Shown here: positions 172-63,981 of the stretch, in pieces
How positions within the stretch are numbered: position 1 is the stretch's first letter
How the letters are laid out: every line of letters begins with the position of its first letter
Notes under the pieces: generated by a model
Told to the model about the DNA's origin: nothing
What the model saw: only the letters and a program-made list of their open reading frames with translations
The model's database searches: none
Origin: a virus
Direction: 5' to 3' (one strand)
Virus record (IMG/VR): IMGVR_UViG_3300046501_000246
DNA length: 64,000 nucleotides
Made by a program: the position numbers and the translations under genes

Positions 172-246
172 TGGAGCGGGTGAATGGTATCGAGCCATCC
201 TCTTTAGTTTGGAAAACTAAGGCCCATCCGTCTAGACCACACCAGC
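172..246 (-). tRNA. tRNA-Gly(TCC)
   Basis: Cloverleaf with anticodon arm TTAGT-TTTCCAA-ACTAA and encoded CCA; one acceptor-stem mismatch. Confidence 0.88.
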
Positions 247-376
247 ATATATTTAATAGAACTATTGGCCTCTGGACCGTTACGGCGGTAATAGCTAATC
301 TTTCCGTAAAGCAGAATAGTTCGCGCTATTCTTAAAGACTTCGAAGCATATCGTACCAATAGTTCTACAAAAGATA

Positions 377-452
<76 letters not shown>

Positions 453-465
453 GTAGGAAAGACGC

Positions 466-792
466 TTACGCGTCGATCCACTTAAACAATTCTTCCCTAG
501 TGATTTGCTTATCACCGTACTTATTAACCATGGCAAGGACGCGAGGTACAATAATAACCACTAGCTTATTGCTGCTGTGGATTTTTACCTCGACAGACTT
601 GTAAGCCCTGCCGTCTAGAAACGCGCGAGCTAAGAAAGTGGCTCGATTTTCATTTCTAACTTCCCATGTTCTGTGTTGTCTCAGGGACCAGAACGCGGGC
701 TTATTTTTTGCTTTTTGCTTCCTCTCTTCGAAACGGATAATTTTTGCTTCTTCAGTGAGGTGCTTAGATTTAACTTTAAGTTCGATGCTCAT
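466..792 (-). CDS. hypothetical basic phage protein (108 aa)
   Basis: SD GGAG upstream; fills the gap between tRNAs; same strand as the cluster. Confidence 0.72.
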   Translation of the reverse strand: MSIELKVKSKHLTEEAKIIRFEERKQKAKNKPAFWSLRQHRTWEVRNENRATFLARAFLDGRAYKSVEVKIHSSNKLVVIIVPRVLAMVNKYGDKQITREELFKWIDA

Positions 793-930
793 TTGTATTC
801 TCCATTAGATTATTTTATTGCCGTTGTCAAGTGATTATTTGACGATTTAGGGCGGCGCTCTAATGGAAAGTATTAATGTTTTTTCAAGCTACGTATTATC
901 GCCCATTTTAAATCCTTTATATGGGTAGTT

Positions 931-1004
931 TGGTGGGATTACCCGGAATCGAACCGAGGTAAAAGAGTTTAGAATTCCCTGCTCTGCCATTGAGCTATAA
1001 TCCC
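931..1004 (-). tRNA. tRNA with CUA anticodon (amber suppressor type)
   Basis: GGGATTA/TAATCCC acceptor, GCTC/GAGC D-stem, loop TT-CTA-AA, TTCGATT T-loop, A73, CCA. The anticodon stem is weak (2 G-U pairs, 1 A-C mismatch). Confidence 0.8.
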
Positions 1005-1119
1005 TTTGTGACCGTACTTTCCGGCCTGTCTCCGACCCATCTTTTGTATACGCCTGTAACGGGCGCGACCCGCCCAACAACGCTTCGGGGACGATCTGAC
1101 ACATAATATGTGCTGTGGT

Positions 1120-1290
1120 TCAGACCCGATTCTTTAAACTTTCTATGTACTCTTTCAAAGCTCCACCTTTGAGTGGCGGGCCAGAAACTTGCTTGCCGTT
1201 TATAAATACGCTAACTGGCTTATCAACGGCTTTGATATGAAATGGAGCTATTGTAACTTTAGGCCAATCAATATTGTCGTTATCGTCCAT
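1120..1290 (-). CDS. small hypothetical protein (56 aa, MDDNDNIDWPKV...), not in the ORF track
   Basis: Hand-translated; AAGGGG SD upstream. Confidence 0.55.
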   Translation of the reverse strand: MDDNDNIDWPKVTIAPFHIKAVDKPVSVFINGKQVSGPPLKGGALKEYIESLKNRV

Positions 1291-1372
1291 AACATCCCCT
1301 TAAACTTTGGTCGAAGCTTCTCACTCCGCTGTCGATTGCTTGGCCCATCGATAATGCCGACCGTAAATTAGG

Positions 1373-1449
1373 TCTGAGTGGCAGGATTTGAACCTGCGAC
1401 CTTCCTCTTCATGTGGTGAGGACGCTCTAACCCGCTGAGCTACACCCAA
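1373..1449 (-). tRNA. atypical or pseudo tRNA with a 10-nt anticodon loop and no CCA
   Basis: Normal D and T arms; stem TCCTC/GAGGA encloses ACCACATGAA. Confidence 0.7.
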
Positions 1450-1590
1450 GTCGTAAAATTAAGTTCGGGAACCTCGTAGGCGCGAGGCTTGCTGGACTAG
1501 CATAACGAGCTAGCCTAAGACCCGCTCCGATTACCAGCGACATCTGTCAACCGAATGTACAGTAGCCGATTTCTTCCCGAATTTGTTAAT

Positions 1591-1665
1591 TGGTCAGGGT
1601 GAAGTGACTCGAACACTTAACCTCTAGCTTCCAAAGCCAGCACTCCACCATTGAGCTACACCCTG
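1591..1665 (-). tRNA. tRNA-Pro(TGG)
   Basis: CAGGGTG/CACCCTG acceptor, CTGGC-TTTGGAA-GCTAG, CCA. Confidence 0.95.
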
Positions 1666-1837
1666 TTATTCTTTTATTGTGGGGCACCAGTACTTAACAA
1701 AATCGACTCGGATGCAGCGAGTTGAAGGTTAAGTTTGCACCCTGAGTGCCACCCAATAAAAGAATGTTCTAGGTGAATGACAAAGCGAAGCGCGCTCGTT
1801 TCATCATTCTAAGGACGCCTAGCCGCCCATTCATTTT

Positions 1838-1975
1838 TTAGAACCCGTTCTGCCTAGCAATTTCCTTGATATCACAACGCGAGATACCAAGATCGGCAAG
1901 TTCCCTATTTGTCAAACGCTCAAGTTCGCGAATCGTCTGACGCTGCTTCTTCCACTTTGAGAAAAATTCGAACAT
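1838..1975 (-). CDS. DUF1127 (YjiS-like) small protein, 45 aa, not in the ORF track
   Basis: Hand translation MFEFFSKWKKQRQTIRELERLTNRELADLGISRCDIKEIARQNGF matches the W..R.T.REL..L..R.L.DLGI.R.DI pattern; GAAGGA SD. Confidence 0.85.
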   Translation of the reverse strand: MFEFFSKWKKQRQTIRELERLTNRELADLGISRCDIKEIARQNGF

Positions 1976-2360
1976 GTCATATCCTTCTAATGTTCTAGTT
2001 TTCTCCTCCACTTATAAGTGCCGGAATCTTTCCCGGCTGTCAGGGCACGCTTTGTATTCGACGGTTACGGACACTGAAACTAGTAATCAGCGCTCCCACG
2101 CACCTATCAGCCGAACGTTTTCCTTCAACGGCAACTGCAAATTAAATCACCAAAGGCATATTAAACTATCTGTAAAGAAAGGTGTTTACAGAGTGGAGCG
2201 GGACGATCCACATACGATGCTGGTTTTTGCGAAGAGCTTCCTCGCTACTAGCCAAGGTCTGTTTTGTCTAGATCGGTGTACGCCAATCAATCCCTCAAGA
2301 GCCCTTATTGCTGTGGTTCGAAACGTCGTACAACGTAACGGCTTACAGCTATGGTGAAAC

Positions 2361-2437
2361 TGGTATCAGTGACTGGATTTGAACCAATAACCTCTCCCTT
2401 ATCAAGGGAGTGCTCTAACCAATTGAGCTACACTGAC
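2361..2437 (-). tRNA. tRNA-Ile(GAT)
   Basis: CTCCC-TTGATAA-GGGAG, canonical arms, CCA. Confidence 0.95.
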
Positions 2438-2807
2438 TTAATATGCTTGAAGGAAGGTTTATGACTAACCTTATTTAAGTGTGGCGGACAGTACGCGACA
2501 ACACCCTTCAATATTTCTGTTTTTAGACCACACACTCTAGCTTTCTTAACTAGTATGTTTCGCCGCTGTCGCGTCCGATCAGCTGACACCGCTATTAATC
2601 CCGGATTATCCGTTCATTTTTTAACTGACGTGCCGAATGTGAAGTCTAAAAACAGCACCTTGTTCCCTAACTTATCGACTTTTGATCTTGGTTTCAGGAG
2701 GTGCCGTATTGTTAAATTACTTAGTTTCAGAAGTCTTAGATGGTCTAACTTCTACGCCATTAATAAAAACAGCTACGTACTTAGTACCATCTGGATCTTT
2801 AATTTCT

Positions 2808-3011
2808 TTAGTCGTTACCACGTTCGATTTCTCCATAAAATTTCAGGAGAATAATGGTTCTTCCAGTCGGGTAGGGATAACCATCATCTCCATCTACATA
2901 TTCTCTTTCGATATTAATGTCCCTCACATTAACTCTCTTGCCGTCTAAAATAACATTAAAAGTTTTCACTTCATCTGGTTCGGTCGGCTCAGATTTAATA
3001 TAAAGATTCAT
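2808..3011 (-). CDS. hypothetical protein (67 aa)
   Basis: Co-oriented ORF in the tRNA cluster with plausible composition. Confidence 0.6.
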   Translation of the reverse strand: MNLYIKSEPTEPDEVKTFNVILDGKRVNVRDINIEREYVDGDDGYPYPTGRTIILLKFYGEIERGND

Positions 3012-3026
3012 TACAGTCTCGTTATT

Positions 3027-3102
3027 TGGTTGCGGGTGCCAGATTTGAACTGGCGTCTCAAGGTTATGAGCCTAGCAAGGAACCTGACTCCTCCAACCCG
3101 CA
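3027..3102 (-). tRNA. tRNA-Met(CAT), initiator-like
   Basis: TGCGGGT/ACCCGCA acceptor, CTCATAA loop, TTCAAAT T-loop, CCA; resembles bacterial tRNA-fMet. Confidence 0.92.
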
Positions 3103-23284: not shown

Positions 23285-23432
23285 TGCCTTAGCTCCTATG
23301 TGAAACGTGCTCCATTGCAGTCAACTTAGATGTAATAAAAAGTATGGTCAAGAGTGAATTTTAATTTTTTATATATTGACTTTATATAAAATGTATGGTA
23401 CACTTTATTTTTTGTCAAATTTGAGAAATGTT

Positions 23433-23990
23433 ATGAATTTACCTAAGCCTTTACCAAACATTGAAACTTTGTACGACTTGTTAGAATTGAAAGAGGATTT
23501 TACTTTATATTGGAAAGTAAGACCTGTAAAATATTTTGCTGGAAACAATCCAGAGTTAGCCGCGAAGCGCTACAATAGCAGAGATGCAGGAAAGCCCGCA
23601 TTTGATACTATAAGCTCGAAAGGTTATTTGCACGGTCATATATTTAAAGAGCAATACTTAACGCATAGAATTATCTGGAAAATGATTCATGGTTACGATC
23701 CTCAATATATTGACCATATAGACGGAAATCCTTTAAACAATCATATAGACAATTTGAGGGATGTAACGTTTAGTGAAAATATGAAAAACCAAAAAATTAA
23801 ACGAGAAAATCCTAGTAAAGTCATGGGGGTTTCATTAAGGAAAGATTTAATTTCAAAGCCTTGGCGCGCCGTTATTGGTATTGATGGTAAATCTAAAACT
23901 ATTGGATATTTTTCTTCTAAAGAAGAGGCTATTGCAGCAAGAAAAGCCGCTGAGATTATCAACGGCTTTCATGTCAATCATGGCAGGTAA
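23433..23990 (+). CDS. HNH homing endonuclease with C-terminal AP2-like domain
   Basis: HRIIW...IDHIDGNPLNN..DNLR.VT..EN and W.A.I..DGK...IGYF...EEA..AR..AE. The ORF-track TTG at 23376 is the -35 of its own promoter (TTGACT-N17-TACACT). Confidence 0.92.
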   Translation: MNLPKPLPNIETLYDLLELKEDFTLYWKVRPVKYFAGNNPELAAKRYNSRDAGKPAFDTISSKGYLHGHIFKEQYLTHRIIWKMIHGYDPQYIDHIDGNPLNNHIDNLRDVTFSENMKNQKIKRENPSKVMGVSLRKDLISKPWRAVIGIDGKSKTIGYFSSKEEAIAARKAAEIINGFHVNHGR

Positions 23991-29271: not shown

Positions 29272-29358
29272 GCGGGCTTGGTGTAATTGCTAGCCACGAC
29301 AGACTTAAAATCTGTTGACCTTTGTGTCGTACCGGTTGGAGTCCGGTAGCCCGTACCA
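29272..29358 (+). tRNA. tRNA-Leu(TAA)
   Basis: ACAGA-CTTAAAA-TCTGT, long variable arm, CCA. T-loop reads TTGGAGT. Promoter TTGACA-N17-TAAGTT upstream. Confidence 0.9.
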
Positions 29359-29500
29359 ATTGAGTTATGAAAATACAGCGTCCCTCAGAAGCGTTCGCGC
29401 CACGAGGGTTACAAATAGTAAGAGGTACAGAACAGGCCGTTGGCTTGCTTATGAGAAGACTATGGGCTGTGTTTTTATAATTGAATGAAACTGTTTAGGT

Positions 29501-29626
29501 GGGGAATGCTGGTTATGCTGATGACCTTGTTCCTTCAAGGTCTAATGAGGAAAGAAGTAGTTTCGAAGGCGGTTGCGACTGGCAGAGAAACATAAGGATA
29601 CTTGGTTCGATTCCCCTCAGTTCCCT
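29501..29626 (+). ncRNA. tRNA-like structured RNA candidate
   Basis: Ends pair (GGAA..CTG/CAGTTCC); 7-bp hairpin GACCTTG/CAAGGTC; GGTTCGATTCCC T-loop near the 3' end. Confidence 0.45.
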
Positions 29627-29774
29627 TCCTAAATAGTTTGGCTCAACCTGAATTGACAGGTACTGAACCGCTGGAACAGAGGCGCAAAGCCTTGATCGAG
29701 CGGAATGGATAAAGTAAATGTAACAAGCCGTTTCGACGGGAGATAACATTGCTTCGATCCAGCCTTTTTTCTTC

Positions 29775-29851
29775 GGGCGCTTAGCTCAGTTGGTTAGAGC
29801 ATCTGCCTTTTAAGCAGAGGGTCGAGGGTTCAAGTCCCTCAGCGCCTACCA
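29775..29851 (+). tRNA. tRNA-Lys(TTT)
   Basis: TCTGC-CTTTTAA-GCAGA, canonical arms, CCA. Confidence 0.95.
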
Positions 29852-30092
29852 AGAATTACTCATGCCACGAATTGACGTGGGCTGAGATATGCGAGATTAC
29901 TTAGCTAGCGCTGGCCAAGTAATTCACCGGTATCTTGCGATGTAGGCTCCGACTCTGAATCGGATGATGCTTGCGGTGAGTACAAAGTTTAGCGCAACGT
30001 GAGAGTTGCACTTATATACGTGAGCTAGCTACCACGATATGAGGGATGGGTGAGAGACCGATTGCTAATACGAAATTCTAATAGGTGTAGTC

Positions 30093-31088
30093 ATGATTAT
30101 CAAACTACTTCAAGAAAATTGGGATAAAATACTACAAATCGGTGTAGAAGCCGAGAAACGGATGGAGGCTCACATGTCTAAAAACTTCATCCTTGAGGGG
30201 ATTACACGCAAGGGCAAGAACAGGATCAATGAGCACGGCGCGTGCTGGAAATTGGTTGACGTAAGAGATGGAAAGATGCTATTCGAATCCTTGAACACGC
30301 CGGGATACCTCAAGTGGGGTCCAGAGCCGGATTTCAAGATCGTGGAGGGAGACTAGCATCATGGGCGAGACCATTCTTATATATGATGAACGTTACGAAA
30401 GTGGGCCAAGATTTATTGGCTCTTTCAGGAACGTGCCAGAGGATTGGACCGCGAAAGAAACGCTGGTTCGTTACGGGATAGGCGAGCATCTATGCGTGTA
30501 TCGCGATACCTTCGTTCCTAAGAATTGTATTCATCACGGAAAAAGATTTAGATCGGATTAATATGAAAGATCAGTTTGGTTATACTCCCAATACGGGAAG
30601 CTATCCGCCTTACTTTAATATTACTAAAGTTGACTGCGGTTATCGTGTGACGGTTAGGCGTAAAGCCGAATGGGATGGTGATCTTTGTCTTCCCATGGGT
30701 GGTAATATTGTGGAAGAAACCTTCCCTGAAGATTTCATTGATAAACTGAAAGAGTTTGTCAATGGCTAAAAAAGTTGGAAATTATAAAATTCCGTTTGAT
30801 CGTAACGGGAATCAGCTGCATTATCCTGAGAGTTATTGGAGCGGCAATGGGCGTGTCGAATGTGAGATGCGTGATAATCACGCCTTTGAAGACACGATAG
30901 TTTTTGATTCTATGGAGCGGGGTCGCAGTGCTGCTTACTTCTATTTTAAGCGATCCACAGGTGAAAAACTTGTTGTCTTTATGAAAGATTTGTGCGACAT
31001 GATGCCTCACGTTATTAATGGTACTGTAACAGGTACATTCACTTTCGTTAAGCGTGGCGCTAATTTCGGCACGGCTTTAATTAGTTAA
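30093..31088 (+). other. four small hypothetical genes (30093-30356, 30361-30561, 30563-30769, ~30771-31088)
   Basis: Tightly packed, co-oriented. Confidence 0.68.
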
Positions 31089-31093
31089 ACTAT

Positions 31094-31183
31094 CTACACG
31101 TACCGGTCAGGGTTTCTACCCCTTAGTAACCGTAATTGGAGGCGATAACATCAATGGGGGTTCGAGTCCCTCCGTGTAGGCCA
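31094..31183 (+). ncRNA. tRNA-like RNA with intact acceptor, T-arm and CCA but rearranged D/anticodon region
   Basis: CTACACG/CGTGTAG 7-bp stem, G73, CCA, GGGGG-TTCGAGT-CCCTC; no canonical D-arm. Confidence 0.7.
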
Positions 31184-31193
31184 TTTTTAAGAA

Positions 31194-31268
31194 GGAGGAT
31201 TAGCACAATGGTAGTGCCTGCGGCTCATAACCGTTTCTACGTTGGTTCGATTCCAGCATCCTCTACCA
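31194..31268 (+). tRNA. tRNA with CAT anticodon (Met or Ile2)
   Basis: GGAGGAT/ATCCTCT acceptor, GCAC/GTGC D-stem, CTCATAA loop, CCA. Confidence 0.92.
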
Positions 31269-31746
31269 AAACTTGTTTTCGCCTTTTATAAGATTCTTTC
31301 ATAGCCTCAACATGAGCAGGCGACTTTGGTTTACCTTTTAATTTTAAACCACCCTTCCTGCCATTTTCTCTAAGCTCTTCTTTGGTCAAAAACAATGCAG
31401 GGCTACGTCCTTTAAGCGGGCCGTGTAACTCTAATCGTTTCTCAGCGCCAGCTTTTGCTGCTTCTGAAGTGAATCCACCTACACCGCCTAAGCGCATATT
31501 GTAGGTGAAATTTTTATCGTAATCATTAGTTAATTCAATTTCTTTTAAATAAGCTTCTTCTTTAGAAGAAGTTATGAATAGTATTTCTTTTCTAAAATTA
31601 TGTTTACCGTGTGCTTTTATTGCTTGTTTAATGGCTACGCCAGAGCCATAATATCCATCGTAAGGATTATTAGTTAGATGCACTCCAATGTAGTATTTGT
31701 TATTGATGTTATTAGTTATTTTATAAACAGTGTATACTTTATCCAT
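31237..31746 (-). CDS. GIY-YIG homing endonuclease (Seg-like)
   Basis: VYKITNNINNKYYIG.H......Y.GSG..I..AI..HG..NF.KEIL; AT-rich; its stop lies inside the tRNA T-arm. Confidence 0.92.
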   Translation of the reverse strand: MDKVYTVYKITNNINNKYYIGVHLTNNPYDGYYGSGVAIKQAIKAHGKHNFRKEILFITSSKEEAYLKEIELTNDYDKNFTYNMRLGGVGGFTSEAAKAGAEKRLELHGPLKGRSPALFLTKEELRENGRKGGLKLKGKPKSPAHVEAMKESYKRRKQVLVEDAGIEPT

Positions 31747-37752: not shown

Positions 37753-38216
37753 ATGCCATAGAGAGCGATCAAACAGGCTTCGGCTCTGCCATCATCCATT
37801 TTACGCTTCCAAGCCGTGGCGCATTTTGGAAAATACTGTGAGGCTCGATAGCGTGCCGCGTCTTTGTCAGCCGGTATTTTAAGATTGGCTTTCCAAACGG
37901 CGGGGCGGACCTGAGAGACAGGAATTTGTAATCCGCCGCATGCGCCTAGGATAGTACCAAATGCTCTACCAAAGGTAAAAGATGAGACTACACCTTCACC
38001 GGGACGAGCATTTACTTCTTCAATGTAAAGATGTATGACGCGTTCATCAGCTAGAATATTACCAATACCGACGTGATCCATAATCGTTTTAGACTTAGCT
38101 CCCGGCTTGATCGTAAACGTCGGCATGTCAAAAATCTCAAGAGTGTGTTCGATAGGATCAAGCTTAGCGAATGCACCTTTTGCGCCGGGATCAGCGCCTA
38201 CAATTATTCCTGCCAT
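37692..38216 (-). CDS. RuvC-like Holliday junction resolvase
   Basis: IVGADPG, YIEEV, F.FG..FG, P.VWK, DDGRAEA.LIA motifs. Confidence 0.9.
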   Translation of the reverse strand: MAGIIVGADPGAKGAFAKLDPIEHTLEIFDMPTFTIKPGAKSKTIMDHVGIGNILADERVIHLYIEEVNARPGEGVVSSFTFGRAFGTILGACGGLQIPVSQVRPAVWKANLKIPADKDAARYRASQYFPKCATAWKRKMDDGRAEACLIALYGMCAMGYRIEKPFTLVGELSE

Positions 38217-38908
38217 ATCTCGTCAACTTCTTTCTGACCACGCAATTGAGCTTCAATGGCGTCTTCAATATTCTTCTCATAACTGTAATGAGTGAATTTA
38301 TCTTTTAATCTTACTTTAACCATGTACAAGTTACGTGGTTTGTGATAGTAGACGCCTAGAACAGGAGTCTCTTTAACATCATCTTTACTATTTGTTTCAG
38401 CTGCGGCTTGCGTAGCGCTGGCATAAAGATTATATTGTTTGAGTTGGTCTCTGGCCCACTTCTCAGCGGAGAGCTTTTTCTTGAAGCTACTGCCGCGATA
38501 GAAATAGGGGTGATGCCATACCTTGACTTGGTAGACGCCATCGGTATAAGGCTTGATCAGATAATTACCGAGTTGTGGCTGTAATGAAGACTTGAGGACT
38601 AGATTGTCCTTGTGCGTGTTCATTAGGTTTCCATCTACGGCAGCTATAGGTTCTTTAGGCCAATCACCATAAATCAACAGCCAAGCAATATTCTGAACTT
38701 CCATAAGTTCTTTTTGGAATTGGCAAACGTATCTGCTGTTGTAATGCATGTTGACACGCTTCGTCACCCTCCATGAATCTCGGAAGAGGCGATAGACGCG
38801 GCCAGTATCTTCATCATACTTAAACTTTTGCTTAAGTAGCTTTTTATCAACCTTCGGATAAAGGTTTAGATACTGATCGACTTCTCTTTTTATTTTCTTT
38901 GCTGCCAT
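38204..38908 (-). CDS. degenerate HNH/AP2-like protein
   Basis: NIAWLLIYGDWPKEPIAAVDGNLMNTHKDNL aligns to HR.AW...G.WP...IDH.DGN..NN...NL with the His residues lost. Confidence 0.7.
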   Translation of the reverse strand: MAAKKIKREVDQYLNLYPKVDKKLLKQKFKYDEDTGRVYRLFRDSWRVTKRVNMHYNSRYVCQFQKELMEVQNIAWLLIYGDWPKEPIAAVDGNLMNTHKDNLVLKSSLQPQLGNYLIKPYTDGVYQVKVWHHPYFYRGSSFKKKLSAEKWARDQLKQYNLYASATQAAAETNSKDDVKETPVLGVYYHKPRNLYMVKVRLKDKFTHYSYEKNIEDAIEAQLRGQKEVDEIWQE

Positions 38909-62003: not shown

Positions 62004-62203
62004 GATAGTTCGACATATAGCTGAATTTCGGGATCGTCGTGCTCAAAAACAACATCAACGACCTTATATCGAACATTGTTTTTAAAGAAAGTGTTTCCTG
62101 TCTGAGGAACAACAGGTAATGCAACTGAGAAAGAATTGCCATCATTAAGATAGCACTTGAACGAAATCATCGTCATATCAACCTCCTTTAAATTTTGTCC
62201 CAA
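62000..62203 (-). CDS. small hypothetical protein
   Basis: AAGGAGG RBS before MTMISF. Confidence 0.6.
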   Translation of the reverse strand: MGQNLKEVDMTMISFKCYLNDGNSFSVALPVVPQTGNTFFKNNVRYKVVDVVFEHDDPEIQLYVELS

Positions 62204-62805
62204 ACCGCGATAACTGCTTCGATGTAGTTATCTCCTATCACAAACGTTTCGCGAGGTAAATGATAAAATCTTACATCAGGGAGAATCTTACAAATTTCGT
62301 CACAGTAAGTTGCATGGAGCAGGGCGACGAGACGGCCACCTTCTGCAAGTTGGTCCGCCGCATGTCTGACATGCTCGACACAATTCTTGTGCGGCGGATT
62401 CATGACGACGCGGTCGAACAGATTGTCAAAACTATATCTCAGGAAATTGGTGTTCAGACATTCCACAGACGGATATGATTCCACCAATTCAGCGAACATA
62501 GGCTTGTTAAGCTCTATCGCCGTGATGTTTTGAGCGTAGACACTAACAGCTTCCACGATAGCGCCAGTTCCAGCGCTAGGTTCAAGTACCCTGTCATGAA
62601 TTATGATATCCGCAAGCGCTGCCATATCGGCGGCGAGCCATGACGGCGTGTTCGTTGCTTGTAAATTAGTTCTTCCCTCCATTAATGGAGGAAGAATGGT
62701 CCGAGGTGAAGGATTCGAACCCCCGACACCTGTAGTTTCACCCCTTATCCCCTTCAAATCATCTCCAACATTACTTGGGCCGGTTCTTGAGTTAATTACT
62801 CTCAT
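62188..62805 (-). CDS. N6-adenine DNA methyltransferase (start 62805 or 62682)
   Basis: VLEPSAGTG (motif I), AIELN, FDRVVMNPPH (motif IV), L..GGRLVAL. Confidence 0.88.
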   Translation of the reverse strand: MRVINSRTGPSNVGDDLKGIRGETTGVGGSNPSPRTILPPLMEGRTNLQATNTPSWLAADMAALADIIIHDRVLEPSAGTGAIVEAVSVYAQNITAIELNKPMFAELVESYPSVECLNTNFLRYSFDNLFDRVVMNPPHKNCVEHVRHAADQLAEGGRLVALLHATYCDEICKILPDVRFYHLPRETFVIGDNYIEAVIAVWDKI

Positions 62806-62920
62806 TACTTCATTCCTTTCATGTTATCGACTCATCTCAGGTTCAATTCACTTCTATCGGTGATCAAGCCAGTCGAAATGAATCAGGCTCACAGTGCTCT
62901 ACCAGCTGAGCTAACCCCGG
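62697..62920 (-). ncRNA. tRNA-scaffold RNA B with a 155-nt insert replacing the anticodon loop
   Basis: Acceptor CCGGGGT/ACCTCGG + A + CCA; D-arm GCTC-AGCTGGTA-GAGC; anticodon stem CTGTG/TACAG; variable loop GTGTC; T-arm GGGGG-TTCGAAT-CCTTC. Confidence 0.85.
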
Positions 62921-63075
62921 CAATGTGTCTGTCTTTCCAGACTGCCAAATCCCCGGAACCGTCCGGTCCTGCGGCATGTGCCGCTTCGGTAGGGACTTGA
63001 ACCCTACTTTTCCTTACCAAACCTCGATTAGCGAGCCGGAATTGAACCGGCGTTACTCGTAGCCTTTCGGCAAAC
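62921..63075 (-). ncRNA. hairpin-dense spacer with two extra T-arm mimics
   Basis: GCC-GAAA-GGC, GCCGG-TTCAATT-CCGGC, GTAGGG-TTCAAGT-CCCTAC, GCGGC-ACAT-GCCGC, GTCT-GGAA-AGAC. Confidence 0.7.
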
Positions 63076-63325
63076 TGGTCCAAGAGAATGGATTCGAACC
63101 ACCAGCCCCCACGTTTTCTACCCAATCCTTTTCAATTTTACTGACGCGGTACTAAGTCTTTTTCATGAGTTGATCTGACCCACTACTTAATCCTGTTCTG
63201 CGGCAGTATCCTATCCAATTCTATTTAGTGTCGTAACACGATTTGCCACATCGTTACACTAAATCAGGTCGTGGTGCTCTACCTGCTACCTTTTGACACA
63301 AGGCATACTTTGGAGCTACTCTTGG
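63076..63325 (-). ncRNA. tRNA-scaffold RNA A with a 156-nt anticodon insert and a 33-nt D-loop
   Basis: Perfect acceptor CCAAGAG/CTCTTGG + A + CCA; D-stem GCTC/GAGC; perfect anticodon stem CCACG/CGTGG; T-arm GGTGG-TTCGAAT-CCATT. Confidence 0.85.
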
Positions 63326-63375
63326 TTAAACTTCTTCAACAACAGTTGAGGAAGATTTAGTTATCTTGTTATTCC

Positions 63376-63404
63376 TATCTAAGACATTCCGTATCAAATG
63401 TCAA
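63376..63404 (-). promoter_or_regulatory. sigma70-type promoter for the RNA A-spacer-RNA B-MTase unit
   Basis: TTGACA-N17-TAGATA. Confidence 0.75.
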
Positions 63405-63981
63405 CAGGTTTTTCAGATTTTTCTTCATATTCAATTTTTAAAATTTCAACTAATTCAATTGAGCCATCATTTTCACGCTCAAAAACTTCATGCGCTTCTT
63501 TTTCTGTATCTTGAATATTTTCCAAGAAAAATAATTCTTTGGTCTTGATTGCGCCTCGCACCACAACAGCGTAACCTACGACCTTCTTAGGCGGCTCGCG
63601 CCACGGCATGAAGTTGTGGATATAGCACCGCGTCACATCGCGCTCATGATCAATGATCACAGCAAGCTCAGAATTATTAGGATCGACGCCAACGAAATAG
63701 ACTTTCTCACCGCCTAGTGAGCAATAAGTTCCCGGCTCAGCCGCGTACTCAAGATCGTCGCTCCTGAACCAGTAACCTTCAAGACCCTCAAAGTTCACGC
63801 AATCCCATGTGCCTTGAAAGGCATAATTAGGGCCTAACCAAGTGTTACGATTATTAATCGCCGAAATGATGTAAGGCGTATCGAGCTTCCATTCATTAGC
63901 TATATCAGGAATAGTTTCACCGTAAAGATCGCGCCGCTGAACCAATTTAACTCTATCACCTACTCTAAAATCCATCACCAA
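63394..63981 (-). CDS. hypothetical protein (195 aa, FRVGDRV start)
   Basis: AAAGAGGG RBS; co-oriented. Confidence 0.7.
   Translation of the reverse strand: MVMDFRVGDRVKLVQRRDLYGETIPDIANEWKLDTPYIISAINNRNTWLGPNYAFQGTWDCVNFEGLEGYWFRSDDLEYAAEPGTYCSLGGEKVYFVGVDPNNSELAVIIDHERDVTRCYIHNFMPWREPPKKVVGYAVVVRGAIKTKELFFLENIQDTEKEAHEVFERENDGSIELVEILKIEYEEKSEKPVDI

What the first reader, a model, noticed from the sequence alone, without database searches (positions are those of the whole stretch)
62697..63325. Two tandem tRNA bodies whose anticodon loops are each replaced by a ~155-nt structured domain
Seen: RNA A (63325-63076) and RNA B (62920-62697) each have a 7-bp acceptor stem, A73, encoded CCA, GCTC/GAGC D-stem, 5-bp anticodon stem, 5-nt variable loop and TTCGAAT T-arm. 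In place of a 7-nt loop they carry inserts of 156 nt (63269-63114) and 155 nt (62889-62735). The inserts differ internally but share ends: 5' (A/AG)CCTGATT and 3' TTGAA-RR-GGAT..GGGT(A)GAAA(A/C). Both begin with a long hairpin (A: ATTTAGTG/CACTAAAT; B: TCGACT/AGTCGA). A also has a D-loop expanded to 33 nt. A dedicated TTGACA-N17-TAGATA promoter lies upstream. Inference: equal length, shared ends and intact tRNA arms argue for a selected RNA class rather than decay. Options are (i) an unrecognised short tRNA intron, (ii) a tRNA scaffold that RNase P/CCA processing stabilises to display a functional domain, as tmRNA does, or (iii) a decoy for anticodon nucleases or synthetases. Standard tRNA finders would probably miss or split these.
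Basis: partly seen in the sequence, partly recalled or inferred. Interest (0 to 1): 0.95.

Follow-up and report, generated by a model that had tools for sequence, protein, structure and literature searches.

The report
Split phage tRNA-Phe genes, unclassified insert
Two phenylalanine-tRNA genes of a large phage are each split, at exactly the same spot, by a conserved ~148-base folded RNA that matches no known intron or RNA family; the same design sits in front of the same methyltransferase gene in 13 phage lineages, four of them cultured, so how it is handled can now be tested at the bench.

Summary
RNA A (63325-63076) and RNA B (62920-62697), minus strand, are full tRNA bodies with 156/155 nt between the anticodon-stem strands. 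I correct three points. The two inserts are homologous along their whole length. The last 7 nt are a tRNA-Phe anticodon loop (NNGAAAN), so the insert proper is 149/148 nt between nt 31 and 32.

I found 20 such RNAs in 13 phage lineages. These include the cultured Caulobacter phages CcrColossus and CcrPW, Brevundimonas phage Bajun and Rhizobium phage RHph_Y1_11. All lie directly upstream of one small RsmD/KsgA-like methyltransferase gene.

Covariation supports the fold: 82-85% of cells are paired against 65-66% in shuffles, and 28-31 of 34 pairs change on both sides. Rfam assigns nothing, and group I, BHB and small-ribozyme features are not met.

In the window's clade the methyltransferase reading frame starts at an AUG inside the insert and reads through the tRNA 3' exon.

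Best reading (about 0.5): an intron of an undescribed class that must be removed to give the phage's tRNA-Phe. Main rival (about 0.28): an unspliced tRNA-scaffolded RNA working with the methyltransferase.

This scan had flagged what appears to be the same family on other DNA (e1-5343997).

The parts
63376..63404 (-). Promoter-like site: TTGACA (63404-63399), 17-nt spacer, TAGATA (63381-63376). It overlaps the stop of the upstream ORF.
   Evidence: TTGAC-N17-TAnnnn stands at the same place in L033, L050, L053 and L054. The consensus scanner does not call it.
63331..63354 (-). Leader hairpin CUUCCUCAAC-UGUU-GUUGAAGAAG, 5 nt before RNA A.
   Evidence: Similar CUUCCUC/GAGGAAG-type hairpins flank the RNAs in relatives.
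63270..63325 (-). RNA A 5' exon: acceptor 5' strand, D-arm with a 33-nt D-loop holding a hairpin (63305-63287), and anticodon-stem 5' strand CCACG.
   Evidence: The D-loop hairpin covaries in A-type copies of L053 and L054.
63121..63269 (-). Insert A (149 nt). Order: spacer A, P0 CCU, Pa hairpin, GAA, long arm, GGA, P0' GGG. The long arm holds GAA 63198-63196, AGUA 63187-63184, the Pe hairpin, GAA 63164-63162 and AGUA 63153-63150.
   Evidence: R1, 144 bits.
63076..63120 (-). RNA A anticodon-loop remnant UAGAAAA (63120-63114), anticodon-stem 3' strand, variable loop, T-arm, acceptor 3' strand, A73 and CCA.
62921..63075 (-). A-B spacer with two T-arm-like hairpins (GCCGG-UUCAAUU-CCGGC and UAGGG-UUCAAGU-CCCUA). 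The closest relative has only about 40 nt here.
   Evidence: mascRNA-like hit, E 0.85; z -2.7.
62890..62920 (-). RNA B 5' exon (acceptor, normal D-arm, anticodon-stem 5' strand CUGUG).
62742..62889 (-). Insert B (148 nt). Same architecture as insert A: GAA 62820-62818, AGUA 62809-62806, GAA 62786-62784, AGUA 62775-62772, GGA 62750-62748.
   Evidence: R1, 150 bits.
62803..62817 (-). SD-like AGGA (62817-62814) and AUG (62805-62803), inside the conserved AGUA-AUG motif of insert B. This is the candidate start of the methyltransferase ORF.
62697..62741 (-). RNA B anticodon loop GUGAAAC (62741-62735), anticodon-stem 3' strand, variable loop GUGUC, T-arm, acceptor 3' strand, A73 and CCA.
62670..62696 (-). 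Hairpin after B (UUCUUCCUCC-AUUAAU-GGAGGGAAGAA). It is an in-frame 30-nt addition that carries the alternative ATG at 62682.
62188..62805 (-). Methyltransferase ORF, long form of 205 aa. The conserved protein starts at RTNLQATNTPSWLAADM. It is a class I SAM fold with an NPPH motif.

Best explanation
A and B are two members of an undescribed family of phage tRNA-Phe(GAA) genes. Each is interrupted between nucleotides 31 and 32 by a structured insert: 147-151 nt in this clade (172 nt in one copy), and 129-200 nt in the wider family.

Anatomy (shown). The insert's two ends pair in a 3-bp clamp (P0: CCN with N'GG) that sits on the anticodon stem. From P0 spring a 40-47-nt hairpin (Pa) and a long irregular arm. 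In this clade the arm reads GAA-N8-AGUA-[hairpin]-GAA-N8-AGUA. I read these as two loop-E (bulged-G)-like modules arranged as a dyad around an 8-pair segment. That motif identification rests on sequence and recall, not on a test.

Mechanism (inferred). The RNA is transcribed from its own sigma-70-type promoter. The insert must then be excised and the exons joined to give the phage's tRNA-Phe. The route is not group I, group II or bulge-helix-bulge. It would be either a new ribozyme activity, or cleavage at the two junctions flanking P0 followed by sealing with an RNA ligase such as host RtcB.

Link to the methyltransferase (synteny and open frame shown; translation and switch inferred). The element is tied to the downstream small amino-methyltransferase. 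In this clade the methyltransferase-proximal copy (B) carries the gene's SD-like AGGA and AUG inside the insert. The ORF then reads through the tRNA 3' exon. If that start is used, making the tRNA and translating the methyltransferase from one transcript exclude each other.
For: Exon identity:
- ARAGORN with introns calls B, and the CcrColossus, CcrPW and Bajun copies, as tRNA-Phe(gaa).
- B's exons joined at 31/32 resemble 13 intron-less phage tRNA-Phe genes in D-arm, stem, loop and variable loop. One of those has the same loop, GUGAAAU, as B_L054.

Conserved design:
- The same junction design holds in 20 RNAs from 13 lineages. The third pair of P0 covaries: U.G, C-G, G-C, A-U, G.U.
- Insert length is 147-151 nt in 9 of 10 close members.
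- With a hand-set structure on a MAFFT alignment, 82.3% of cells pair against 66.1% in shuffles (0 of 500 reach it). 28 of 34 pairs change on both sides. Slid controls give 35-46%.
- After re-alignment with the covariance model: 84.6% paired and 31 of 34 pairs.

Need for a tRNA-Phe:
- CcrColossus gives 30 Rfam tRNA matches and Bajun 21. ARAGORN run on loci covering their tRNA clusters named no canonical tRNA-Phe.
- The window's 10 ordinary tRNAs include no Phe.

No known class:
- Rfam at E up to 10 gives only noise for the window. At E up to 5 it gives nothing relevant for the cultured-phage copies.

Methyltransferase link:
- Every one of the 13 lineages has the RNA directly upstream of the orthologue, down to 36% amino-acid identity.
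- The frame is open from the insert, or from before the RNA, in all lineages of the window's clade. The three in-frame additions are 30, 12 and 39 nt.
- B/C copies have AGGA plus AUG and no stop. A copies have GUG and 1-3 stops.
- In L050 the insert AUG is the only ATG/GTG/TTG upstream of the translated TPxWLA motif.
Against: - No RNA data: splicing has not been observed.
- U33, nearly universal in decoding tRNAs, is U in only 11 of 20 copies (A in 7, C in 2). Window A has A33. Position 37 is A or G.
- A-type copies carry a second conserved insertion, a hairpin in the D-loop, which is unknown in working tRNAs.
- No intron-less allele of these particular genes was found. The insert is present in 20 of 20 copies, which is unlike a sporadic mobile intron.
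- The genes lie outside the phage's tRNA arrays.
- No RNA ligase was found in the window proteins tested or in the relative's 120-kb contig.
- The splice junctions lack the U.G / omega-G logic of group I.
Confidence: 0.5

Rival explanations
1. The insert is never removed. The RNAs are tRNA-shaped stable RNAs processed by RNase P and bearing CCA. They may be charged by PheRS through the exposed GAA and A73. Their extended, branched anticodon arm would be the working part. They would act with the neighbouring methyltransferase as its substrate, cofactor or guide.
For: - GAA, A73 and the tRNA-Phe body are invariant, while U33 and position 37, which are needed for decoding, drift.
- A-type copies have an extra conserved D-loop hairpin.
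- The insert is present in 20 of 20 copies and carries more invariant motifs than the acceptor stems, which vary freely.
- Synteny with the methyltransferase is strict over 13 lineages.
- The genes lie apart from the tRNA arrays and have their own promoter.
- The dyad of loop-E-like modules would suit a dimeric protein (inference).
Against: - Exactly 7 nt with the tRNA-Phe loop consensus AUGAA(A/G)A are kept next to the anticodon stem. A non-decoding RNA would not obviously need that.
- The phages lack any other tRNA-Phe.
- The methyltransferase's target is unknown. Its similarity to Erm, KsgA and RsmD is below every curated cut-off.
Confidence: 0.28
2. The tRNA-like RNA next to the gene is mainly a cis-acting leader. 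It would be a tRNA mimic holding the SD and start codon of the methyltransferase, bound by that enzyme (or by PheRS) to autoregulate translation, as the thrS operator mimics tRNA-Thr.
For: - The SD-like AGGA and the AUG lie in helices Pd and Pe of the methyltransferase-proximal copy only. The frame is kept open, with all in-frame additions being multiples of 3.
Against: - A-type copies keep the whole fold without any ORF.
- In CcrColossus and Bajun the methyltransferase has its own AGGAGG plus ATG after the tRNA, yet both RNAs are kept.
- A leader does not need a complete tRNA body with encoded CCA.
Confidence: 0.1
3. A strongly reduced group I intron, self-splicing with guanosine.
For: - Group I introns are the only self-splicing introns I know of in bacterial tRNA anticodon loops (from my own knowledge; PMC3984707 confirms group I introns occur in bacterial and phage tRNA genes).
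- A G precedes the putative 3' junction (the last G of P0').
- The invariant G of GAAA could also serve as omega-G.
Against: - Rfam gives no group I hit at E up to 10 (window) or 5 (cultured-phage copies).
- The fold is two nested arms. A covariation scan found no P3/P7-type pseudoknot.
- The 5' exon ends in G or U, not a conserved U paired to G.
- Splice sites built on CCU|...G|AAA would give 8-9-nt loops.
- At 148 nt it is well below the smallest group I intron I recall, the Azoarcus tRNA-Ile intron at about 205 nt (from memory, not checked here).
Confidence: 0.05
4. Decaying tRNA pseudogenes disrupted by an inserted repeat.
For: - ARAGORN's default settings miss them.
- U33 is lost in some copies.
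Against: - Compensatory changes keep every helix of both body and insert across 13 lineages.
- Length is conserved.
- The promoter-like site is conserved.
Confidence: 0.02

Closest known systems
Group I introns in bacterial and cyanobacterial tRNA anticodon loops (tRNA-Leu UAA, tRNA-fMet, Azoarcus tRNA-Ile; Rfam RF00028)
   Same: An intervening sequence in the anticodon region of a bacterial-type tRNA gene. It is structured, conserved, and kept in all orthologues.
   Different: - There is no Rfam match.
- It has no P1 U.G, P3/P7 pseudoknot or G-binding core.
- It sits at 31/32, not within 34-38.
- It is only about 148 nt.
- Its ends form a simple 3-bp clamp.
Archaeal and eukaryal bulge-helix-bulge tRNA introns cut by splicing endonuclease and sealed by RtcB or Trl1
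   Same: The insert's ends are brought together next to the anticodon stem. Non-canonical positions are known in Archaea. A cut-and-seal route would fit.
   Different: - There is no 3-nt bulge / 4-bp helix / 3-nt bulge.
- Here the loop is 0-2 nt opposite 7 nt, with a 3-bp helix.
- The host is bacterial.
- No EndA-like or ligase gene was seen.
'Enigmatic' tRNA introns of Lak megaphages (Devoto et al. 2019, PMC6784885) and the mini-introns noted elsewhere in this scan
   Same: These are phage tRNA genes with conserved inserts of no known class. The paper states that phage tRNA introns had not been reported before.
   Different: - According to other notes of this scan, which I did not check, those inserts are short (about 45-62 nt) and often tRNA-shaped.
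- They occur in various tRNAs.
- This family is about 130-200 nt, specific to tRNA-Phe, placed at 31/32, and linked to a methyltransferase.
tmRNA and bacterial Y RNA (YrlA)
   Same: A tRNA-like module is fused to a large structured domain. tmRNA shows that such an RNA can be processed and charged like a tRNA.
   Different: - Here the whole cloverleaf, including the D-arm and anticodon stem, is kept.
- There is no tag ORF or pseudoknot ring.
- ARAGORN and Rfam give no tmRNA hit. Only one sub-threshold YrlA hit spans two tRNA halves in CcrColossus.
- As I recall YrlA's architecture, its ends lie at the anticodon side; that is not so here.
thrS operator (tRNA-Thr mimic in the leader of its own synthetase mRNA)
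   Same: A tRNA-like fold overlaps the ribosome-binding site of a gene for an enzyme that may act on tRNA.
   Different: - Here it is a complete tRNA gene with CCA.
- The ORF reads through the 3' exon.
- A second copy has no ORF.

Membership tests
tRNA-Phe(GAA) (exons) | Cloverleaf with acceptor, D, anticodon and T arms, GAA anticodon and A73 | tested here: met
   by eye. ARAGORN -i calls B and the cultured-phage copies tRNA-Phe(gaa). B's exons joined at 31/32 match intron-less phage tRNA-Phe genes.
tRNA-Phe(GAA) (exons) | Canonical 7-nt anticodon loop with U33 and purine 37 | tested here: inconclusive
   Seven nt are always available and position 37 is A or G. Position 33 is U in only 11 of 20 copies (window A: A33; window B: U33).
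Group I intron (RF00028) | Match to the covariance model / conserved P3-P8 core | tested here: not met
   No hit at E up to 10 in the window or up to 5 in three cultured-phage loci.
Group I intron (RF00028) | 5' exon ending in U paired with G of an internal guide; intron ending in omega-G; splice product with a 7-nt loop | tested here: not met
   Nucleotide 31 is G or U. The alternative sites after CCU and after the G of GAAA give 8-9-nt loops (reasoning in the report).
Group I intron (RF00028) | P3/P7 pseudoknot | tested here: not met
   A scan of all column pairs found only the nested helices plus weak G-rich alternatives.
Bulge-helix-bulge intron | Two 3-nt bulges separated by a 4-bp helix at the splice sites | tested here: not met
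   The junction is 0-2 nt opposite 7 nt around a 3-bp helix in all 20 copies.
Bulge-helix-bulge intron | Splicing endonuclease (EndA) and ligase available | tested here: inconclusive
   No RtcB in the relative's 120-kb contig. None among 30 window proteins scanned. EndA was not searched for. The genome is incomplete and the host unknown.
Small self-cleaving ribozymes (hammerhead, twister, twister-sister, pistol, hatchet, hairpin, HDV/theta) | Match to the Rfam models; hammerhead CUGAUGA...GAAA core | tested here: not met
   No Rfam hit. The CUGAU-like 5' motif is not conserved: CCUUAUU, CCCAUCU and CCCGUUU in relatives.
tmRNA | tRNA-like domain without an anticodon arm, plus a tag reading frame | tested here: not met
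   ARAGORN and Rfam find none here. The anticodon stem and D-stem are intact.
Loop E / bulged-G (sarcin-ricin) motif | AGUA strand opposite a GAA strand, flanked by helices | tested here: inconclusive
   The sequence pattern GAA-N8-AGUA...GAA-N8-AGUA is present in all 10 close members, with one CAA exception. The 3-D motif cannot be tested with these tools.

The most novel reading that the evidence does not exclude
The insert is a new class of catalytic or protein-guided tRNA intron in viruses of bacteria. It would be a ~150-nt RNA that cuts itself out at the stem-loop boundary (31/32), either by its own chemistry or by presenting two sites for cut-and-seal enzymes. It would also double as the translation start of a methyltransferase that acts on the resulting RNA. 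One transcript would then switch between being a tRNA precursor and being an mRNA.
Probability: 0.25. Interest if true: 0.95.

Novelty: categorically new. Interest (0 to 1): 0.85.

Why it matters
To my knowledge, bacteria and their viruses are known to remove tRNA introns only by group I (rarely group II) self-splicing. A conserved, covarying insert of about 150 nt that fits none of these classes, in tRNA-Phe genes of phages that lack another tRNA-Phe, implies one of two things. Either there is an unknown splicing route (a new ribozyme, or a bacterial cut-and-seal pathway, which might give bacterial RtcB a natural substrate), or there is a new kind of tRNA-scaffolded RNA.

The strict pairing with a small methyltransferase points to an RNA-enzyme module. 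So does the ORF that starts inside the insert and reads through a tRNA exon. I know of no precedent for that gene overlap.

Members also sit unannotated in cultured phages of Caulobacter crescentus, Brevundimonas and Rhizobium. In RHph_Y1_11 the RNA lies under a methyltransferase CDS annotated too long. The question is therefore directly testable in a model bacterium.

Tried and rejected
Searches that found no further members:
- Motif scans of IMG/VR built from the shared ends gave only coding-sequence chance hits, or only the one relative L025.
- Two metagenome scans and one scan of species-representative genomes gave only chance hits.
- blastn of the whole locus against GenBank phages found nothing.
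- Model R1 found nothing in five related alphaproteobacterial or cyanobacterial phages. It does not reach the CcrColossus-type inserts.
- The upstream protein P0002 has no relatives in IMG/VR and no family.

Readings considered and dropped:
- Hammerhead: the CUGAU motif is not conserved.
- Hairpin-ribozyme loop A/B analogy: the strand opposite NGAA is only 0-2 nt.
- K-turn at the junction: it would need G31 to be unpaired.
- THI-box resemblance of ACCUGAUCUGG: no Rfam TPP hit.
- An internal UUC 'codon' pairing with GAA: absent in A.
- An internal guide pairing RUG with the anticodon-stem 5' strand: weak, conflicts with Pe, and absent in L138.
- A kissing contact between the Pa and Pe loops: not consistent across types.
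- A tag-peptide ORF as in tmRNA: no conserved frame in A copies.
- TAG recoding by the CUA tRNA: TAG ends 13 of 92 long ORFs, which is not decisive.
- Naming the methyltransferase by sequence: only sub-threshold Erm/KsgA/RsmD matches and one weak PDB hit.
Full report
**1. What is there.**
On the minus strand, 63325-63076 (A, 250 nt) and 62920-62697 (B, 224 nt) are complete tRNA bodies. Each has a 7-bp acceptor stem, a GCUC/GAGC D-stem, a 5-bp anticodon stem (A: CCACG/CGUGG; B: CUGUG/UACAG), a 5-nt variable loop, a UUCGAAU T-loop, A73 and an encoded CCA. Between the anticodon-stem strands lie 156 and 155 nt.

- ARAGORN's default and the Rfam tRNA model find ten other tRNAs in the window but not these two.
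- With introns allowed, ARAGORN calls B as tRNA-Phe(gaa).
- Rfam at E up to 10 gives only noise over 62300-63700.
- The window is phage DNA: it encodes a terminase, a tail collar protein and HNH and GIY-YIG nucleases.
- The closest large terminase is that of Sphingobium phage Lacusarx at 43% amino-acid identity. Next come Ruegeria, Rhodobacter and Erythrobacter siphophages.
- No genome is held for the window. The collection records contigs of up to 181 kb carrying the same methyltransferase.

**2. Relatives.**
Motif scans gave one IMG/VR relative (L025 = L033 = L139). It has both RNAs in the same order. Following the downstream methyltransferase to its contigs gave further copies in L050/L051, L053, L054 and L138. 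That makes ten distinct RNAs of three body types:
- A has an expanded D-loop.
- B and C have a normal D-loop.

Their called genes were about 75 codons 'too long'. The extension is a divergent copy of the same RNA:
- L055/L057 and L060 (R1 E about 1e-7), and L058.
- The cultured Rhizobium phage RHph_Y1_11, where the RNA lies under the 5' end of CDS EVC30_106.

Caulobacter phages CcrColossus and CcrPW and Brevundimonas phage Bajun have an unannotated gap of 675-700 nt before the orthologous gene. Each gap holds two tandem tRNA-Phe(gaa)-like genes with inserts that ARAGORN puts at 172-200 nt.

In all there are 20 RNAs in 13 lineages, always directly upstream of this methyltransferase. I found none in the other collections searched.

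**3. Anatomy.**
All copies share one junction design. Reading 5' to 3':
- the anticodon-stem 5' strand;
- 0-2 nt, mostly purines;
- CCN;
- the insert;
- N'GG;
- 7 nt of the form (A/U/G)(U/A/C)GAA(A/G)N;
- the anticodon-stem 3' strand.

CCN pairs with N'GG (helix P0). Its third pair covaries: U.G, C-G, G-C, A-U and G.U. The 7 nt have the consensus AUGAA(A/G)A, which is a tRNA-Phe anticodon loop. The insert proper therefore lies between nt 31 and 32. It is 149 nt in A (63269-63121) and 148 nt in B (62889-62742).

In the ten close members the insert is 147-151 nt in nine cases. It parses identically in all ten:
- P0, then hairpin Pa of 40-47 nt. Pa's sequence differs completely between types but it always folds.
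- GAA, then a 2-bp helix Pb that covaries UU/AA, CU/AG and CC/GG.
- A purine-rich internal loop with tandem G.A, then helix Pc.
- GAA-N8-AGUA, hairpin Pe, (G/C)AA-N8-AGUA.
- The returning strands, then RR-GGA, then P0'.

AGUA opposite GAA is, as I recall it, the sequence signature of the loop-E (bulged-G) motif. Here two such modules face each other as a dyad around an 8-position segment (Pd). In Pd, positions 2, 3, 6 and 7 pair and covary, and positions 4 and 5 are often G.A / A.G.

**4. Statistics.**
- On the MAFFT alignment with my structure, 82.3% of cells form standard pairs against 66.1% in shuffles (0 of 500 reach it). 28 of 34 pairs change on both sides. Slid controls give 35-46%.
- After re-alignment with covariance model R1, 84.6% pair and 31 of 34 pairs change on both sides. 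That alignment leans towards the model.
- A's D-loop hairpin also covaries: UGCCUU/AAGGUA, CAUCUU/AAGGUG and ACAUC/GGUGU.
- There is no further copy in the window.
- A scan for extra covarying helices found no pseudoknot. It found only an alternative partner (RGG of RR-GGA) for the CCN strand.

**5.
- The inserts are homologous throughout, not only at their ends.
- The anticodon loop is still there, on the 3' side.
- B's hairpin TCGACT/AGTCGA is broken in L033. The conserved one is AUUCAUUUC/GAAGUGAAU.
- The promoter-like TTGACA-N17-TAGATA (63404-63376) is real, and TTGAC-N17-TAnnnn recurs in four other lineages. The scanner does not call it, because the -10 lacks its last T.

**6. The methyltransferase link.**
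The protein is a small class I SAM enzyme with an NPPH motif. It has only sub-threshold similarity to Erm, KsgA and RsmD. Gill et al. 2012 called the CcrColossus orthologue gp358 a possible RsmD-like rRNA methyltransferase. They also reported that Rfam found nothing but tRNAs (PMC3556154).

Its N-terminal motif RTNLxATxTPxWLAxDM shows synonymous third-position variation (Leu as CUC, UUA, CUU, CUG and CUA), so it is translated. In Bajun and CcrColossus this N-terminal region follows an ordinary AGGAGG plus ATG placed after the tRNA.

In the window's clade the arrangement is different:
- In six lineages the codons for R-T-N are the tRNA's own 3' end (CGG ACC AAU).
- In the window, L050 and L053 they are separated from it by additions of 30, 12 and 39 nt, all multiples of three.
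- The frame stays open back to an AUG that is part of the invariant AGUA-AUG motif. An AGGA sits 8 nt upstream of it (62817-62803 in B).
- In L050 this AUG is the only ATG/GTG/TTG upstream of the translated motif.
- A-type copies, which are not next to the gene, have GUG there and 1-3 in-frame stops.

I conclude, as an inference, that in this clade the methyltransferase is translated from inside insert B and through B's 3' exon. A transcript that is spliced or trimmed into a tRNA then cannot serve as that mRNA.

**7. What it most likely is.**
Points for an intron that is removed:
- The exons joined at 31/32 look like ordinary phage tRNA-Phe genes.
- Exactly one anticodon loop's worth of sequence is kept.
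- CcrColossus (30 Rfam tRNA matches) and Bajun (21), and the window's ten tRNAs, include no other tRNA-Phe.

Points against it, which favour an RNA that keeps its insert:
- U33 is present in only 11 of 20 copies.
- Position 37 is A or G.
- A-type copies carry a second conserved insertion.
- The insert is never absent.
- The genes lie outside the tRNA arrays and next to a possible RNA methyltransferase.

I put the intron reading at about 0.5, the unspliced tRNA-scaffold reading at about 0.28, a purely cis-regulatory leader at about 0.1, a reduced group I intron at about 0.05, and decay at about 0.02.

The removal mechanism is not shown. Group I, BHB and all Rfam ribozyme models fail their tests. 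Both junctions lie in the one internal loop closed by P0, so either a new ribozyme or a cut-and-seal route is conceivable.

**8. Prior knowledge.**
My full-text searches found no description of this element. Devoto et al. 2019 reported 'enigmatic' introns in Lak megaphage tRNAs and stated that phage tRNA introns had not been reported before (PMC6784885). By the account of other notes in this scan, those inserts are short and unrelated to this one. This scan flagged what appears to be the same family on other DNA, described as a 158-nt insert in a phage tRNA-Phe carrying the start of an HNH gene (e1-5343997). I could not inspect that locus. I did confirm independently that relatives exist in cultured Caulobacter, Brevundimonas and Rhizobium phages.

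Noticed in passing
window 62921-63075 (-): The spacer between A and B holds two T-arm-like hairpins (GCCGG-UUCAAUU-CCGGC and UAGGG-UUCAAGU-CCCUA, the second inside a mini-helix GGUUUGG...CCGAAGC) plus three more hairpins. It folds better than shuffles (z -2.7). The closest relative has only about 40 nt here. These may be remnants of tRNA genes or extra processing modules.
   Followed up: partly
window 63331-63354 and 62670-62696 (-); L033:3757-3783; L053 about 2856-2882: Each interrupted tRNA is flanked by a hairpin of the type CUUCCUC...GAGGAAG or UUCUCCUCC...GGAGGAGAA. These may be processing or protection signals. In the window and L053 the one after the last tRNA is an in-frame part of the methyltransferase ORF.
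   Followed up: no
window 931-1004 (-): There is a tRNA with anticodon CUA (amber-suppressor type; ARAGORN labels it Pyl) inside the array at 172-3102. TAG ends 13 of 92 long ORFs, so recoding of TAG is neither shown nor excluded.
   Followed up: partly
L210:1485-2204 (MN988558.1 62183-62902): In Rhizobium phage RHph_Y1_11 the annotated 'putative DNA methyltransferase' CDS (EVC30_106) starts upstream of the unannotated interrupted tRNA-Phe gene and runs right through it. Metagenomic gene calls of 239-240 aa (P0010, P0013) do the same.
   Followed up: yes
L211:206-879 (JX100810.1 about 241352-242025); L212:206-876; L213:192-888: Unannotated gaps of 675-700 nt before gp358 of CcrColossus, gp366 of CcrPW and BAJUN_01070 each hold two interrupted tRNA-Phe-like genes.
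   Followed up: yes
L222:982-1414 (ON529858.1, Brevundimonas phage Bajun): ARAGORN calls a permuted tmRNA with tag peptide VAANDNAPFAVREAIAA, next to two tRNA-Met genes in the phage genome.
   Followed up: no
window 31237-31746 (-), 23376-23990 (+), 38204-38908 (-): There is a SegE-like GIY-YIG nuclease gene beside the tRNA cluster at 29272-31268, and two HNH_3 nuclease genes elsewhere. These are free-standing homing-type nucleases and are not linked to the interrupted tRNAs.
   Followed up: no
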